DNA from: Escherichia coli O157:H7
GTDB lineage: Bacteria > Pseudomonadota > Gammaproteobacteria > Enterobacterales > Enterobacteriaceae
Reading direction: 5' to 3' (one strand)
Length of the DNA: 64,000 nt
NCBI RefSeq assembly: GCF_013167455.1
Contig: NZ_CP038328.1
The notes under the pieces are model-generated. The model saw nothing but the letters and a program-made list of their open reading frames with translations. It did no database searches and was not told the origin of the DNA. Position numbers and translations under genes: made by a program. Shown one piece after another: positions 9,785 through 49,975 of the stretch. Within the stretch, counting starts at the first letter, position 1, and every line of letters starts with the position of its first letter.

Positions 9785-9885
9785 GCTAATTTCTTGTCGG
9801 AGTGCCTTAACTGGCTGAGACCGTTTATTCGGGATCCGCGGAACCTGATCAGGCTAATACCTGCGAAGGGAACAAGAGTTAATCT
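9785..9885 (+). promoter_or_regulatory. TPP (thi-box) riboswitch in the thiC leader
   Basis: Conserved thi-box core CTGAGA...ACCTGATCaGGcTAATACCtGCGAAGGGAAC read at about 9812-9872, upstream of thiC. Confidence 0.85.
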
Positions 9886-9965
9886 GCTATCGCATCGCCT
9901 TTGCGGCGATCGTCTCTTGCTTCATCCGTCGTCTGACAAGCCACGTCCTTAACTTTTTGGAATGA

Positions 9966-13432: not shown

Positions 13433-14203
13433 ATGTTACGTATTGCGGACAAAACGTTTGATTCACATCTGTTTACCGGCACCGGGAAATTCGCCTCTTC
13501 ACAACTGATGGTAGAGGCAATCCGCGCTTCCGGCAGCCAGCTGGTGACGCTGGCGATGAAACGTGTCGACTTGCGCCAGCACAACGACGCTATCCTCGAA
13601 CCGCTTATCGCGGCGGGTGTGACCCTGCTGCCAAATACATCCGGGGCGAAAACAGCGGAAGAAGCCATTTTCGCCGCCCATCTGGCTCGTGAAGCGTTAG
13701 GCACAAACTGGTTAAAATTGGAGATTCACCCTGACGCCCGCTGGCTGTTGCCCGATCCCATCGAAACCCTGAAAGCCGCCGAAACGCTGGTACAACAGGG
13801 ATTTGTCGTGCTGCCTTACTGCGGGGCCGATCCGGTATTGTGTAAACGTCTGGAAGAAGTCGGCTGTGCAGCGGTGATGCCGCTCGGCGCGCCGATTGGC
13901 TCGAATCAGGGGCTGGAAACCCGCGCCATGCTGGAGATTATTATCCAGCAGGCCACAGTTCCGGTGGTTGTCGATGCTGGCATCGGCGTTCCCAGCCATG
14001 CCGCGCAGGCGCTGGAAATGGGGGCCGACGCGGTGTTAGTGAATACGGCGATTGCCGTCGCGGACGATCCCGTCAACATGGCGAAGGCATTTCGTCTGGC
14101 AGTAGAAGCAGGCCTGCTGGCACCTCAGTCCGGACCGGGCAGCCGCAGTTATTTTGCTCATGCCACCAGCCCGCTGACCGGATTTCTGGAGGCATCGGTA
14201 TGA
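13433..14203 (+). CDS. thiG: thiazole synthase, 256 aa
   Basis: [20 protein letters not shown] start 1 nt after the thiS stop; the ORF-track start at 13175 is an out-of-context extension. Confidence 0.94.
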
Positions 14204-15333
14204 AAACCTTCAGCGATCGCTGGCGACAACTGGACTGGGACGACATCCGCCTGCGTATCAACGGCAAAACGGCTGCTGACGTAGAGCGGGCGCTAAATGC
14301 CTCGCAACTCACCCGCGACGATATGATGGCGCTGTTATCGCCAGCCGCCAGTGGCTATCTGGAACAACTGGCCCAACGGGCGCAGCGTCTGACCCGTCAG
14401 CGATTTGGCAACACAGTTAGTTTCTACGTCCCGCTTTATCTTTCCAATCTTTGCGCTAACGACTGCACGTACTGCGGATTCTCTATGAGCAACCGCATCA
14501 AGCGCAAAACGCTGGATGAAGCGGATATTGCCAGGGAAAGCGCCGCTATACGGGAGATGGGCTTTGAACATCTGCTTTTAGTCACCGGTGAACATCAGGC
14601 GAAAGTGGGGATGGATTACTTTCGTCGTCATCTCCCTGCCCTGCGTGAACAGTTCTCTTCACTACAGATGGAAGTACAGCCGCTGGCGGAGACGGAATAC
14701 GCCGAGTTAAAGCAACTTGGTCTGGATGGCGTGATGGTTTATCAGGAGACATATCACGAGGCGACTTATGCCCGCCATCATCTGAAAGGCAAAAAACAGG
14801 ACTTCTTCTGGCGGCTGGAAACGCCGGATCGGCTGGGCCGTGCGGGGATTGATAAGATAGGCCTCGGCGCGCTAATTGGCCTTTCCGACAGCTGGCGCGT
14901 TGACTGCTATATGGTTGCAGAACATTTGCTATGGCTGCAACAGCATTACTGGCAAAGCCGCTACTCTGTCTCCTTCCCACGCCTGCGTCCATGTACTGGC
15001 GGCATTGAGCCTGCGTCGATTATGGATGAACGCCAGTTAGTGCAAACCATCTGCGCCTTCCGGCTGCTTGCACCGGAGATTGAACTGTCACTCTCCACGC
15101 GGGAATCACCGTGGTTTCGCGATCGCGTTATTCCGCTGGCAATTAATAACGTCAGCGCTTTTTCGAAAACGCAGCCAGGTGGCTATGCCGACAATCACCC
15201 CGAGCTGGAACAGTTCTCACCGCACGACGAGCGCAGACCGGAAGCGGTTGCTGCCGCGTTAACCGCTCAGGGTTTGCAGCCGGTATGGAAAGACTGGGAC
15301 AGCTATCTGGGACGCGCCTCGCAAAGACTATGA
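14200..15333 (+). CDS. thiH: 2-iminoacetate synthase (tyrosine lyase, radical SAM), 377 aa
   Basis: ORF track; CNDCTYCGF radical-SAM motif; 4-nt overlap with thiG. Confidence 0.94.
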
Positions 15334-15715
15334 GACGGAATGTAAGAACGAAAATTTATTCCGAGCCGCTACGGAAGATGAAAAACGCAAGGTTGTTGAA
15401 AGCGTTGTGTTTTTTTATGGTAGTGCCGTCAGCAGGAATGTTGTCCAGGGCGAAAAGCTTCTTCCTCGTTTCGCCCTGCCTTTCTTAAAAATTCCGTAAT
15501 GCAAAGTCTGAAGCCATCGCCTGTTGAGCAATGAAAGAGATCTGATTGTAAGAGAGTAAATACTCAACTATGATAGAGACGAAAATAAGAACACATGTTC
15601 TCATCTTCCAGGATGCAGCAGACTGAAGAAATTCAGACATCCCGCAACCTGCGATTATCGCAAGGTCAAGGCAAAGTCCGGTAATGGCGTTCTGAATACC
15701 AGAGATAATTCTCTG

Positions 15716-15750
15716 GCGAAACCCACCTTAAGGTGGGTTTTGTTATTTTG
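15716..15750 (+). terminator. hairpin plus T-run between convergent thiH and htrC, possibly bidirectional
   Basis: AAACCCACC-ttaa-GGTGGGTTT followed by TGTTATTTT, read from sequence. Confidence 0.55.
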
Positions 15751-15767
15751 AGGGCTGAGGAAGCTGC

Positions 15768-16211
15768 TTATTTCTCAATAAGTTTTAGGCAATGGTGAAA
15801 AATTTCACTGAAAGCCCTGAACACAACAAAGTAAAATGCCTTATCTCCTCCGTCTAAGTCCACCTCAATCACGGCATAGCTACCATACCCGGCATGAATA
15901 ACGTTGCTTTCTGGCAGCGCCAAAATAGTTCTTTTTAAGTGTGTGCGCGCTAAGTTATAACGGTGCTGGCAGAAGGGACGAGATTCTTTAGGCGCGTGGT
16001 ACATTAACGATAGTTTTTCTTCGTTCGTCTGATGTTCATAATCTTTTGTGAAGCAGTGAAGAGAGTAGGTAACCCAAAAGCGATACTCTAAAGGCTCCTT
16101 GTCCTCATGATGCTGAACGTAGATAACCTGATGAGCATCAAGAAACGATAAATCACGAACGTCGCCATCCGGATGTTTAAAAGGTCGCCACTTCTCCACT
16201 TCCTGTTTCAT
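15768..16211 (-). CDS. htrC: HtrC/YjaZ-like protein, 147 aa as read here (see finding on frame structure)
   Basis: ORF track; AAGGA Shine-Dalgarno 6 nt upstream of the ATG; K-12 position between thiH and rpoC; protein identity from synteny, not from remembered sequence. Confidence 0.6.
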   Translation of the reverse strand: MKQEVEKWRPFKHPDGDVRDLSFLDAHQVIYVQHHEDKEPLEYRFWVTYSLHCFTKDYEHQTNEEKLSLMYHAPKESRPFCQHRYNLARTHLKRTILALPESNVIHAGYGSYAVIEVDLDGGDKAFYFVVFRAFSEIFHHCLKLIEK

Positions 16212-16373
16212 TCTCGTTCCTTAAGAAAGCTACACAGGAATAGTATCGAATCCTTGCCGAGTTTGACTCAATTAGTTCAGTCAGTTTCAGGATATTAGTC
16301 ATCTCTACATTGATTATGAGTATTCAGAAATTCCTTAAATATTCTGACAAATGCTCTTTCCCTAAACTCCCCC

Positions 16374-16400
16374 CATAAAAAAACCCGCCGAAGCGGGTTT
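16374..16400 (-). terminator. rho-independent terminator after rpoC
   Basis: Minus-strand GCCCGCTTCGGCGGG hairpin followed by a T7 run, immediately 3' of the rpoC stop. Confidence 0.8.
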
Positions 16401-16423
16401 TTACGTTATTTGCGGATTAACGA

Positions 16424-25000: not shown

Positions 25001-25032
25001 CAAAAAGGCTGGTGACTAAAAAGTCACCAGCC
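25001..25032 (-). terminator. rplL-rpoB intercistronic attenuator hairpin (partial terminator)
   Basis: Minus-strand GGCTGGTGACT-ttttag-TCACCAGCC followed by TTTTTGC, about 40 nt 3' of the rplL stop. Confidence 0.6.
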
Positions 25033-25071
25033 ATCAGCCTGATTTCTCAGGCTGCAACCGGAAGGGTTGGC

Positions 25072-33953: not shown

Positions 33954-34073
33954 ATGCCTGGCAGTTCCCTACTCTCGCATGGGGAGACCCCACACTACCA
34001 TCGGCGCTACGGCGTTTCACTTCTGAGTTCGGCATGGGGTCAGGTGGGACCACCGCGCTAAGGCCGCCAGGCA
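33954..34073 (-). rRNA. rrfB: 5S ribosomal RNA, 120 nt
   Basis: Reverse complement matches E. coli 5S (TGCCTGGCGGCC...GGGAACTGCCAGGCAT) with one variant base near the 5' end. Confidence 0.95.
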
Positions 34074-34166
34074 AATTCTGTTTTATCAGACCGCTTCTGC
34101 GTTCTGATTTAATCTGTATCAGGCCGAAAATCTTCTCTCATCCGCCAAAACACCTTCGGCGTTGTA

Positions 34167-37070
<2,904 letters not shown>

Positions 37071-37263
37071 TCACAACCCGAAGATGTTTCTTTCGATTCA
37101 TCATCGTGTTGCGAAAATTTGAGAGACTCACGAACAACTCTCGTTGTTCAGTGTTTCAATTTTCAGCTTGATCCAGATTTTTAAAGAGCAAATATCTCAA
37201 ACATCACCCGAAGATGAGTTTTGAGATATTAAGGTCGGCGACTTTCACTCACAAACCAGCAAG

Positions 37264-37339
37264 TGGCGTCCCCTAGGGGATTCGAACCCCTGTTACCGCC
37301 GTGAAAGGGCGGTGTCCTGGGCCTCTAGACGAAGGGGAC
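37264..37339 (-). tRNA. gltT: spacer tRNA-Glu (anticodon UUC)
   Basis: Reverse complement reads GTCCCCTTCGTCTAGAGGCCCAGGACACCGCCCTTTCACGGCGGTAACAGGGGTTCGAATCCCCTAGGGGACGCCA. Confidence 0.95.
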
Positions 37340-37424
37340 GTATCAGTCTGCTTCGCAAGACGCCTTGCTTTTCACTTTCTATCAGACAATCTGTGTGAGC
37401 ACTGCAAAGTACGCTTCTTTAAGG

Positions 37425-38966
<1,542 letters not shown>

Positions 38967-41989: not shown

Positions 41990-42235
41990 TGTAAAGCATC
42001 CACAATAGAAGAAGGATGCCGCAGGTTTCATCAATATTACGCGATGATGAGAACCAGATGCGACGTTGGCCGGCAGGTCTTCGGGCTTGGAGGGGTATCT
42101 AAGATACTAAGAGATGATGACTTCCCACCGAATGGCAGTGTCCGCATAACGCAATCATCGCACCTTTCCTTACCGCTGCGCGTCAGCTCCAGATTCGCAC
42201 TGGATTCCCTATTAACTCACAGGACCGGCAAGTGG
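41990..42235 (-). promoter_or_regulatory. cobalamin (AdoCbl) riboswitch in the btuB leader
   Basis: B12-box AAGCCCGAAGACCTGCCGGCC on the minus strand (plus-strand 42066-42088) within about 240 nt upstream of btuB. Confidence 0.8.
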
Positions 42236-42357
42236 ATGCTACAGGTTGTAACAAGTTACTGTCCAGACGTAGCTCACAAATAGGAATTCATCAAGATCTG
42301 GACATCTGATGAGCAATCCCTACAATCGCCGCGTACTTTAATTTTTCAGGATACATC

Positions 42358-49860: not shown

Positions 49861-49975
49861 AGAAACGGAGCGGCACCTCTTTTAACCCTTGAAGTCACTG
49901 CCCGTTTCGAGAGTTTCTCAACTCGAATAACTAAAGCCAACGTGAACTTTTGCGGATCTCCAGGATCCGCTTTTT
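49861..49975 (+). ncRNA. oxyS: OxyS small regulatory RNA
   Basis: GAAACGGAGCGGCACCTCTTTTAACCCTTGAAGTCACTGCCCGTTTCGAGAGTTTCTCAACTCGAATAACTAAAGCCAACGTGAACTTTTGCGGATCTCCAGGATCCGC plus T8 terminator matches OxyS as I remember it. Confidence 0.9.

What the first reader, a model, noticed from the sequence alone, without database searches (positions are those of the whole stretch)
15334..15767. 434-bp convergent thiH-htrC spacer with two hairpins: candidate small RNA locus
Besides the hairpin plus T-run at 15716-15750, a second stem (GGGCGAAA...TTTCGCCC, about 15448-15480) lies 115 bp after the thiH stop. The spacer is long for a convergent pair and contains no credible ORF. A small RNA called SroH has been reported in the htrC/thiH intergenic region in K-12; if conserved, it would sit here. 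Strand and boundaries cannot be fixed from sequence alone.
Basis: partly seen in the sequence, partly recalled or inferred. Interest (0 to 1): 0.2.

Follow-up and report, generated by a model that had tools for sequence, protein, structure and literature searches.

The report
Known sRNA SroH, partnered with YjaZ
The spacer holds the already catalogued E. coli small RNA gene sroH, but comparison with other genomes shows it is a highly structured RNA that always travels with the neighbouring gene yjaZ on plasmids and chromosomes from enterobacteria to cyanobacteria, giving this function-unknown RNA a testable partner.

Summary
Both hairpins exist, and sroH lies at 15581-15741 on the + strand (Rfam RF00372, 201 bits, threshold 80). 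It has a sigma70-like promoter (15546-15574), and its terminator is the hairpin at 15719-15740. The other hairpin (15446-15478) lies outside sroH, in spacer shared by all E. coli. As a gene, sroH is already known.

New here: sroH and the convergent gene yjaZ (htrC) form one mobile unit.
- About 31% of E. coli genomes lack both.
- The pair recurs on ColE1-type and IncF plasmids, a plasmid with phage tail genes, Aeromonas, Oceanimonas and cyanobacteria.
- All 7 close-family yjaZ loci chosen by protein alone carry the RNA abutting the stop codon.
- 33 of 40 RNA-selected loci carry yjaZ; the other 7 keep the RNA beside yjaZ remnants.
- A seven-helix structure is supported by covariation (97.8% paired vs 34-47% in controls), with about 57 invariant positions.
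- In this O157:H7-type window a 71-bp deletion frameshifts yjaZ while sroH is intact.

The parts
14200..15333 (+). thiH, the last gene of the thi operon (context)
   Evidence: 377-aa ORF. Annotated as 2-iminoacetate synthase ThiH in identical E. coli records.
15380..15419 (+).
   Evidence: Inverted repeat I5. Folds at -14.6 kcal/mol, z = -4.2 on the + strand, against -4.3 kcal/mol on the minus strand. Its role as terminator is inferred.
15446..15478 (.). It is outside sroH and its function is unknown.
   Evidence: It lies in the first ~164 nt of the spacer, which E. coli strains lacking sroH and yjaZ also have.
15498..16371 (.). Variable sroH-yjaZ module, present in about 69% of complete E. 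coli genomes (boundaries approximate)
   Evidence: Three-way alignment of the O157, K-12 and EcPF16 loci. 3737 of 5426 genomes carry sroH. Absence from phylogroups B2 and D was already inferred as loss (PMC3318445).
15546..15574 (+). sroH promoter: -35 TTGTAA, 17-nt spacer, -10 TATGAT
   Evidence: It ends 7 nt before the Rfam 5' end. Comparable promoters lie upstream of the RNA in most other loci.
15581..15741 (+). sroH small RNA gene, full length as defined by Rfam
   Evidence: RF00372, 201.1 bits, model positions 1-161. MFE -55.8 kcal/mol, z = -5.6.
15581..15608 (+). 5' leader hairpin (P0), found only in the E. coli and enterobacterial plasmid clade
   Evidence: Inverted repeat I1. Absent where the promoter abuts the core.
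15609..15718 (+). Conserved structured core. P1 15611-15615/15638-15642; P2 15623-15627/15632-15636; long-range helix 15643-15646/15686-15689; P3 15647-15653/15659-15666; P4 15670-15671/15678-15679; P5 15699-15705/15710-15716. Invariant unpaired blocks: CAGCAGA, GGUAA, UUCUGAAUA, CGAA.
   Evidence: Alignments A1 and A3, and model R1 at 141 bits in the window.
15719..15749 (+). sroH terminator (P6 stem 15719-15740 plus U-tract). It is shared tail to tail with yjaZ.
   Evidence: The stem covaries at 5 of 6 pairs. TTTGTTA follows it in all 29 aligned RNAs.
15743..15745 (-). Position of the stop codon (TAA) of an intact yjaZ, 4 nt from the terminator stem. It is out of frame in this strain.
   Evidence: K-12-type annotation and alignment. 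Same geometry in all loci with an intact gene.
15768..16211 (-). yjaZ (formerly htrC), truncated by a frameshift: 147 aa instead of 179
   Evidence: A 71-bp deletion between 15807 and 15808 relative to K-12. NCBIfam NF007263 matches only residues 1-137, at 311 bits against a cut-off of 324. The most conserved motif, KKLRLHVTSAYP, is lost.
16379..16402 (-). rpoC terminator hairpin, just beyond the right edge of the module (16371)
   Evidence: Present in the strain that lacks the module.

Best explanation
The spacer contains sroH, a known small RNA of about 161 nt. It is transcribed from its own sigma70-type promoter in the same direction as thiH. It ends at the hairpin at 15719-15740, which it shares tail to tail with the convergent gene yjaZ.

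SroH is not a lone, lineage-specific sRNA. It is the RNA half of a two-gene RNA-protein cassette (SroH plus YjaZ, Pfam PF27200) that spreads horizontally. The RNA folds into a conserved multi-helix structure: P1/P2 arm, a junction formed by a long-range helix with P3 and P4, then P5 and the terminator. Long unpaired blocks are invariant.

Inferred mechanism: SroH acts through YjaZ by direct, specific RNA-protein recognition. Most plausibly it restrains or regulates YjaZ, as an RNA antidote does in a toxin-antitoxin-like pair. This is more likely than action as a classical base-pairing regulator of distant mRNAs.

Shown here: identity, strand, boundaries, structure, genetic coupling and mobility. 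Inferred only: physical binding, the direction of control, and any toxicity of YjaZ. In this window yjaZ is inactivated by a frameshift, so sroH is effectively an orphan.
For: Identity: RF00372 at 201 bits, promoter, terminator.

Coupling:
- A strain without yjaZ also lacks sroH.
- The Rfam model finds sroH next to yjaZ on four plasmids of different types.
- It also finds it in Oceanimonas, Aeromonas and the cyanobacterium Waterburya.
- With my model R1, all 7 close-family YjaZ proteins chosen by protein alone (12 loci) have the RNA at 107-133 bits, convergent and abutting the stop codon.
- Of 40 evaluable RNA-selected metagenome instances, 31 have yjaZ adjacent and 2 have it displaced by an IS element. 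The other 7 are intact orphan RNAs beside yjaZ remnants.

Structure:
- 97.8% of cells are paired, against 34-47% when partners are slid.
- 17 pairs and 157 cells change on both sides.
- 0 of 500 shuffles reach the covariation score.
- P2, P3 and P5 form in all 29 sequences with different sequences and lengths.
- 57 columns are invariant, while YjaZ proteins are about 50% identical.

Strand: 52 G-U pairs against 5 A-C mismatches, and promoters are conserved upstream.

Not coding: the internal ORF varies from 4 to 41 codons.

Co-divergence: a distant YjaZ (L098) has a diverged RNA at 68.6 bits. Three more distant ones have a differently conserved RNA-like block at the same place.

Toxin-antitoxin-like hints:
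- The cassette sits on plasmids beside RelE/ParE, HigA, ParD, RelB/YafQ and HigB genes, and next to a Tn3 transposase.
- The RNA is kept while yjaZ decays at least three separate times, including about 315 E. coli genomes.
Against: - No experiment here or in the held papers shows that YjaZ binds SroH or that YjaZ is toxic.
- YjaZ matches no PADLOC or PHROG family.
- An sroH deletion in K-12, which has an intact yjaZ, is viable and only sensitive to envelope stress (cited in PMC5389530). That argues against a strongly active toxin.
- SroH was enriched in an Hfq PAR-CLIP experiment (bioRxiv 10.1101/2020.06.29.178624) and bound kbl mRNA in vitro (PMC6172242), as a trans-acting sRNA would.
- The loss asymmetry rests on small numbers and on different sampling in the two directions.
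- In pS51A (L033) the annotated yjaZ-like gene ends about 87 bp from the RNA's terminator, so abutment is not universal.
Confidence: 0.6

Rival explanations
1. SroH is an ordinary trans-acting, Hfq-associated base-pairing sRNA that regulates unlinked mRNAs such as kbl or envelope-related genes. Its position next to yjaZ is incidental.
For: - It bound kbl mRNA in gel-shift assays (PMC6172242).
- It was enriched in an Hfq PAR-CLIP experiment.
- It has a terminator hairpin with a U-tail and one ARN-rich stretch (PMC5575007).
- The deletion has an envelope-stress phenotype (cited in PMC5389530).
Against: - The RNA keeps 57 invariant positions and seven helices in hosts as different as E. coli and cyanobacteria, and on plasmids, where no shared target set is expected.
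- Its presence tracks yjaZ, not host phylogeny.
- Overexpression gave no biofilm or motility phenotype (PMC4606813).
- It is not an established Hfq target.
Confidence: 0.15
2. SroH acts only in cis, as the convergent antisense partner of yjaZ. Collision of the two transcriptions, or pairing of the overlapping 3' ends (type I-like, with 3' overlap), sets yjaZ mRNA levels without any RNA-protein contact.
For: - Convergent layout with a shared terminator. The intact yjaZ stop codon lies 4 nt from the stem in nearly all loci.
- On the yjaZ strand the stem is followed by only three U, so read-through into antisense sroH is plausible (and direct reading of the sequence).
Against: - Antisense pairing is automatic for two strands of the same DNA. 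It needs neither compensatory changes in five helices nor invariant unpaired blocks.
- The G-U bias shows that the structure is selected on the SroH strand itself.
- Orphan RNAs stay intact with their promoters after yjaZ is lost.
- No better-than-random pairing to the yjaZ start region was found, though only 4 loci could be tested.
Confidence: 0.15
3. SroH and YjaZ work together, but not as antidote and toxin. The RNA is a scaffold, substrate or sensor of a YjaZ ribonucleoprotein, for example in stress adaptation or anti-phage defence.
For: - The same coupling, mobility and conservation evidence as for the best explanation.
- The cassette appears as a lone, oppositely oriented insert among tail genes of a phage-like plasmid and on small plasmids.
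- NCBI names YjaZ 'stationary phase growth adaptation protein'.
- sroH rises 2.6-fold after replication inhibition (PMC11228462).
Against: - No match to known defence families.
- No match in phage genomes or viral contigs.
- Intact orphan RNAs without yjaZ are harder to explain if the RNA has no role alone.
Confidence: 0.2

Closest known systems
SroH (Rfam RF00372; E. coli K-12 sroH, first reported in the htrC/thiH intergenic region)
   Same: It is this gene. The Rfam match is full length at 201 bits, in the same position and orientation. The sequence is at least 99% identical in the 3733 E. coli records that match it best.
   Different: Nothing differs at the locus. The Rfam model annotates only the terminator stem. 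The six further helices, the link to yjaZ and the spread beyond enterobacteria are additions from this work.
Type III toxin-antitoxin systems (ToxIN, CptIN, TenpIN)
   Same: A structured non-coding RNA is strictly linked to one protein gene, on plasmids and chromosomes. A direct and specific RNA-protein relationship is proposed for both.
   Different: In type III systems (from my own knowledge) the RNA is a tandem repeat array upstream of the toxin gene, in the same operon. Here there are no repeats, the RNA is a single unit, and the genes are convergent. YjaZ matches none of those toxin families.
Type I toxin-antitoxin pairs with 3'-end overlap (for example txpA/RatA in Bacillus subtilis, from my own knowledge)
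   Same: An RNA gene and a protein gene are convergent and their transcripts can overlap at the 3' ends.
   Different: Type I toxins are small hydrophobic peptides. YjaZ has 179 residues and a confident globular model. The SroH structure and invariant loops go beyond what antisense pairing needs.
RelE/ParE/HigB/YoeB superfamily toxins (for the protein partner)

Membership tests
Rfam RF00372 sroH | Covariance-model score at or above the curated gathering score (80 bits), over the full model | tested here: met
   201.1 bits, E = 2.1e-49, model positions 1-161 of 161, window 15581-15741 (+).
Rfam RF00372 sroH | Located between thiH and yjaZ (htrC), with its own promoter and an intrinsic terminator | tested here: met
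   Flanking genes; promoter at 15546-15574; terminator hairpin with U-tract.
Rfam RF00372 sroH | Expressed as a discrete transcript of about 160 nt | not testable with these tools
   Reported for K-12: a primary transcript with a poly(A) tail plus processed forms (PMC5389530). A K. pneumoniae orthologue has a mapped transcription start (PMC3415461). No expression data for this strain.
Hfq-dependent trans-acting base-pairing sRNA | Binds Hfq and depends on it | not testable with these tools
   Enriched in an Hfq PAR-CLIP experiment but described there as not an established Hfq target.
Hfq-dependent trans-acting base-pairing sRNA | A conserved seed complementary to conserved target mRNAs, with a distribution that follows the host lineage | tested here: not met
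   The distribution follows yjaZ and mobile elements across phyla, not host lineage. The only reported target is an in vitro interaction with kbl.
Type III toxin-antitoxin system | The RNA antitoxin is an array of tandem repeats upstream of the toxin gene in the same transcription unit | tested here: not met
   No tandem repeats between 15300 and 16420. The genes are convergent.
Type III toxin-antitoxin system | Strict co-occurrence of the RNA and protein genes | tested here: met
   7 of 7 protein-selected close-family loci have the RNA. 33 of 40 RNA-selected instances have yjaZ, and the other 7 keep remnants.
Type III toxin-antitoxin system | The protein is a toxic endoribonuclease that is bound and neutralised by the RNA | not testable with these tools
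   No toxicity or binding data. There is only a weak resemblance to the RelE/ParE fold.
Type I toxin-antitoxin system | The toxin is a small hydrophobic peptide (under about 60 aa) | tested here: not met
   YjaZ has 179 aa and a globular alpha/beta model with pLDDT 90.
Type I toxin-antitoxin system | The antisense RNA overlaps the toxin mRNA | tested here: inconclusive
   The shared terminator lies 4 nt from the yjaZ stop, so a 3' overlap is likely. Transcript ends were not measured.
RelE/ParE toxin superfamily (YjaZ) | Sequence-profile match to the family | tested here: not met
   No Pfam hit at E up to 1. hhalign against five RelE/ParE/YafQ/HigB proteins gave probability 0.2%. No PDB sequence hit of note.
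RelE/ParE toxin superfamily (YjaZ) | RelE-like fold | tested here: inconclusive
YjaZ family (Pfam PF27200; NCBIfam NF007263) | Full-length match above the curated cut-off | tested here: not met
   The window ORF scores 311 bits against a cut-off of 324 and matches only residues 1-137 of 179, because of the 71-bp deletion. The K-12 allele scores 430 bits.

The most novel reading that the evidence does not exclude
SroH-YjaZ would be a new class of horizontally mobile RNA-protein module. A single-copy, multi-helix RNA, convergent with a RelE/ParE-like protein gene and sharing its terminator, would bind that protein and neutralise or regulate it. This would be a toxin-antitoxin-like or defence-like system with an architecture unlike types I and III, and a diverged sister RNA would accompany distant YjaZ relatives.
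Probability: 0.35. Interest if true: 0.75.

Novelty: already known. Interest (0 to 1): 0.45.

Why it matters
As a locus this is ordinary.

The comparative result matters because SroH has had no function and was regarded as a poorly conserved enterobacterial sRNA; one study found it the least conserved between E. coli and Klebsiella (PMC3415461). Three results here change that picture:
- Its core is nearly invariant as far as cyanobacteria.
- It has a covariation-supported structure that Rfam does not annotate.
- It is tied to one protein family, YjaZ, which is also of unknown function and has lost its heat-shock designation.

Two "unknowns" of the E. coli genome thereby become one testable hypothesis. 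If the pair proves to be a toxin-antitoxin-like or defence module, it would add a new architecture to RNA-protein addiction systems and would explain why the cassette is common on small plasmids.

Tried and rejected
- **Coding RNA.** The invariant AAGGAUGCAGCAG looks like a ribosome-binding site plus AUG. The ORF from that AUG is 4-41 codons long and shares only MQQT, so I rejected it. The 51-aa antisense ORF (15485-15640) and the other small ORFs have no Pfam match, and the region upstream of the core is not conserved outside the E. coli clade.
- **Structure on the yjaZ strand (a 3' UTR element).** Rejected: 52 G-U pairs against 5 A-C mismatches, and promoters are conserved on the SroH strand.
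- **Type III system.** No tandem repeats.
- **Phage origin.** No blastn match in 50,697 phage records and no core motif in viral contigs. No significant fold match among viral proteins.
- **Known defence or phage protein families.** None matched.
- **Sequence-level RelE/ParE relationship.** None found.
- **Pairing of SroH with the yjaZ start region.** No better than shuffled controls (z from -1.8 to +1.4). My script could evaluate only 4 loci, so this test is weak.
- **17-mer scan of species-representative genomes.** It returned only 28 chance hits in unrelated phyla. Possibly the E. coli representative lacks sroH; I did not check.
- **Unavailable resources.** Vogel et al. 2003 is not in the held library.

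Full report
**1. The observation**

The window is E. coli. The spacer is 100% identical to O157:H7 genomes. thiH ends at 15333, and a minus-strand ORF ends at 15768, which gives the 434-bp spacer.

Both hairpins are real and fold better than chance:
- 15719-15740: perfect 11-bp arms followed by a T-run, -22.5 kcal/mol, z = -4.05.
- 15446-15478: perfect 10-bp arms with a 13-nt loop, -15.0 kcal/mol, z = -4.03.

It forms only on the + strand (-14.6 against -4.3 kcal/mol) and runs into seven T. It is the better candidate for the thi operon terminator, though that role is inferred.

**2. What is there**

A scan of the whole window against Rfam places sroH (RF00372) at 15581-15741 on the + strand. 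The match is full length at 201.1 bits against a threshold of 80.

A sigma70-like promoter, TTGTAA-17-TATGAT, ends 7 nt upstream at 15574. The hairpin at 15719-15740 is its terminator. The 161-nt RNA folds at -55.8 kcal/mol, z = -5.6.

The strand is the same as thiH, and the boundaries are fixed. The stem at 15446-15478 is not part of sroH.

What the held papers say about SroH:
- Its function is unknown. The transcript is a polyadenylated primary transcript with processed forms, and the deletion is sensitive to envelope stress (PMC5389530).
- It binds kbl mRNA in vitro (PMC6172242).
- Overexpression gives no biofilm or motility phenotype (PMC4606813).
- It was enriched in an Hfq PAR-CLIP experiment without being an established Hfq target.
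- It rises 2.6-fold after replication inhibition (PMC11228462).

**3. The surroundings**

The neighbour is yjaZ. Its old name htrC and its heat-shock role have been retracted (PMC11551758).

In K-12-type strains yjaZ is 540 bp, and its TAA stop lies at the position equivalent to 15743-15745, inside the T-run of the sroH terminator. This window carries a 71-bp deletion between 15807 and 15808. The deletion shifts the frame after about residue 135 and removes the most conserved motif of the family.

Counts across 5426 complete E. coli genomes:
- 3737 carry sroH, and 3733 records match it at 99% identity or more.
- Only 3422 carry the yjaZ segment that is deleted here.
- About 31% have neither gene. 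In strain EcPF16 the thiH-rpoC spacer is 241 bp and lacks roughly 15498-16371. This agrees with the reported absence from phylogroups B2 and D, inferred there as loss (PMC3318445).

**4. sroH and yjaZ travel together**

A sensitive DNA search of the module against plasmids found 103 records: Serratia, Enterobacter, Escherichia, Klebsiella, Citrobacter and others. In several of them only the sroH part matches at the DNA level.

The annotated loci show a lone yjaZ-like gene in very different settings:
- an 88-kb plasmid with phage tail and baseplate genes
- the 5.8-kb ColE1-type plasmid pS51A
- two IncF conjugative plasmids

Rfam finds sroH convergent to yjaZ in all four, at 89-144 bits. An independent survey lists htrC among genes found on ColE1 plasmids (PMC5864857).

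A protein search shows the YjaZ family (PF27200) reaching Aeromonas, Oceanimonas, Thiolinea and cyanobacteria at about 50% identity. In Oceanimonas, Aeromonas and Waterburya the RNA is again present, convergent and abutting the stop codon, at 97, 74 and 70 bits.

A core-motif scan of metagenome contigs gave 45 loci and 46 motif instances. They break down as follows:
- 31 have a convergent yjaZ immediately downstream.
- 2 have an IS element inserted between the RNA and yjaZ.
- 5 run off the contig end.
- 1 is a chance match inside a coding gene.
- 7 are intact orphan RNAs next to yjaZ remnants. They fall into two lineages, and one has close relatives with an intact yjaZ (L090, L091).

In the other direction, all 7 close-family YjaZ proteins picked by protein alone (12 loci) have the RNA at 107-133 bits with my covariance model. 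The strain without yjaZ and the chance hit score nothing.

**5. Structure**

An alignment of 29 distinct RNAs has 57 invariant columns. All 29 fit a single layout:

AA-[P1 GGAUG]-CAGCAGA-[P2]-A-[P1' CAUCC]-[long-range CGYU]-[P3 ACC...GGU]-C.A-[P4 GG...CC]-GGUAAA-[long-range RRCG]-UUCUGAAUA-[P5]-CGAA-[terminator]-UUUGUUA

P2, P3 and P5 form in every sequence, with different sequences and lengths.

Covariation results:
- On the MAFFT alignment, 95.7% of cells pair against 33-47% with slid partners. 15 pairs change on both sides, and 0 of 500 shuffles reach the covariation score.
- On the model-based alignment of 41 distinct sequences the figures are 97.8%, 17 pairs and 157 cells, again 0 of 500. 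That alignment is fitted to the model and so leans towards it.
- The long-range helix covaries at three positions: CGCU/GGCG, CACU/GGUG, CGUU/GACG, CGCC/GGCG and CGCU/AGCG.
- P1 is invariant, so it is neither supported nor contradicted. P4 is weak.

The strand is settled by 52 G-U pairs against 5 A-C mismatches and by sigma70-type promoters upstream of the core. These are often TTGCAA-16/17-TATAAT ending 6 nt before AAGGAUGC. The 28-nt 5' hairpin of the E. coli RNA is specific to its clade.

The RNA is not a small-protein gene. The Rfam model annotates only the terminator stem.

**6. The protein partner**

YjaZ gives a confident model: pLDDT 90, pTM 0.85. It has no informative sequence relatives in the PDB, Pfam, PADLOC or PHROGs.

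The wider superfamily has 714 cluster representatives at E of 0.001 or better, and 29 at 1e-30 or better. Of four distant members examined:
- One (L098) has a clearly homologous but diverged RNA at 68.6 bits.
- Three have only weak model hits (8-16 bits), but these fall exactly at the expected place and strand. They have a similar layout, and two of them (L092 and L096) share a conserved block of their own, CCACCCAAGYGUGG-UAUA-YUCAAGAGG.

This looks like co-divergence of RNA and protein, but three examples are too few to be sure.

**7. Mechanism**

Shown:
- SroH is an independently transcribed, structured, non-coding RNA under strong purifying selection.
- It is genetically coupled to yjaZ in a mobile cassette with a fixed tail-to-tail geometry.

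Inferred:
- The invariant unpaired blocks, the compensatory stems, and the change of RNA sequence in step with distant YjaZ proteins point to specific recognition by YjaZ. They do not point to antisense pairing, which needs none of this, or to regulation of host mRNAs, which differ among hosts.
- The antidote-like reading rests on four things: the plasmid and TA-rich neighbourhoods, repeated loss of yjaZ with the RNA kept, no yjaZ seen without the RNA, and the weak RelE/ParE resemblance.
- Against it: an sroH deletion in K-12 is viable, and there are no toxicity or binding data.

I put about 0.6 on "acts through YjaZ" and about 0.35 on the specific antidote or new-module reading.

**8. Comparison and verdict**

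The locus is a member of RF00372, so as a gene it is already known. It does not meet the defining features of type I or type III toxin-antitoxin systems that could be tested, although it may work like one. YjaZ cannot be filed under RelE/ParE.

Interest is modest for the finding as it was written. It is raised by the cross-phylum RNA-protein coupling and by the new structure, neither of which appears in any held paper that mentions sroH, yjaZ or htrC.

Noticed in passing
window 15768-16211 (-); deletion site between 15807 and 15808: yjaZ in this O157:H7-type sequence carries a 71-bp deletion relative to K-12. The frameshift gives 147 aa instead of 179 and removes the conserved KKLRLHVTSAYP motif. 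About 315 of 3737 sroH-positive E. coli genomes lack this segment while keeping sroH at 99% identity or more.
   Followed up: yes
window 15380-15419 (+): A strand-specific hairpin (-14.6 kcal/mol, z = -4.2) runs into a run of seven T, 47 nt after the thiH stop. It is probably the real thi operon terminator. The consensus scan missed it, probably because its stem-loop does not fit the scan's criteria (loop of 3-8 nt).
   Followed up: partly
window about 15498-16371; locus L003: The whole sroH-yjaZ block is missing from about 31% of complete E. coli genomes, where the thiH-rpoC spacer is 241 bp. About 34 nt at the junction weakly resemble 15508-15535, which fits a deletion better than a never-inserted state.
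   Followed up: partly
L041, L049, L057, L063 and L044, L082, L084: Intact orphan SroH-like RNAs, with a promoter and terminator, sit where yjaZ has been reduced to a remnant. One lineage lies next to a relBE-like pair and the other next to a superoxide dismutase gene. L058 and L080 have a roughly 1.3-kb insertion encoding a 418-aa transposase-like protein between the RNA and yjaZ.
   Followed up: partly
L092:2532-2665, L094:1600-1721, L096:2534-2669 (all minus strand): Distant YjaZ relatives have a differently conserved RNA-like element in the same place and orientation. L092 and L096 share the block CCACCCAAGYGUGG-UAUA-YUCAAGAGG. This may be a sister RNA family.
   Followed up: partly
window 15609-15623: The invariant core reads AAGGA-AUG-CAG-CAG-AC (E. 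coli has C at the first position). It resembles a ribosome-binding site plus a start codon followed by CAG codons. From memory, RelE cleaves CAG best in the ribosomal A site. Given YjaZ's weak RelE-like fold, this is a lead for a decoy or substrate role.
   Followed up: no
window 15485-15640 (-): A 51-aa ORF antisense to the 5' part of sroH contains a hydrophobic stretch (CVLIFVSIIVEYLL). It has no Pfam match, and the region is not conserved outside the E. coli clade, so it is probably not a gene.
   Followed up: partly
L036, L090, L091, L044, L082, L084: An Fe/Mn superoxide dismutase gene lies next to the cassette both in a cyanobacterium and in an Erwinia-like lineage. This may be coincidence.
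   Followed up: no
window 16212-16423: A genomic SELEX study lists an alternative-sigma RNA polymerase binding peak between rpoC and yjaZ (PMC5493296). No sigma70-like promoter for yjaZ was found by the consensus scan.
   Followed up: no
window 9788-9888, 25006-25067, 33956-38966, 42055-42244, 49862-49971: Other Rfam matches in the window: the TPP riboswitch upstream of the thi operon, P26, an rRNA operon with tRNAs and StyR-44, a cobalamin riboswitch, and OxyS. I take all of these to be expected for this E. coli region; none was examined.
   Followed up: no
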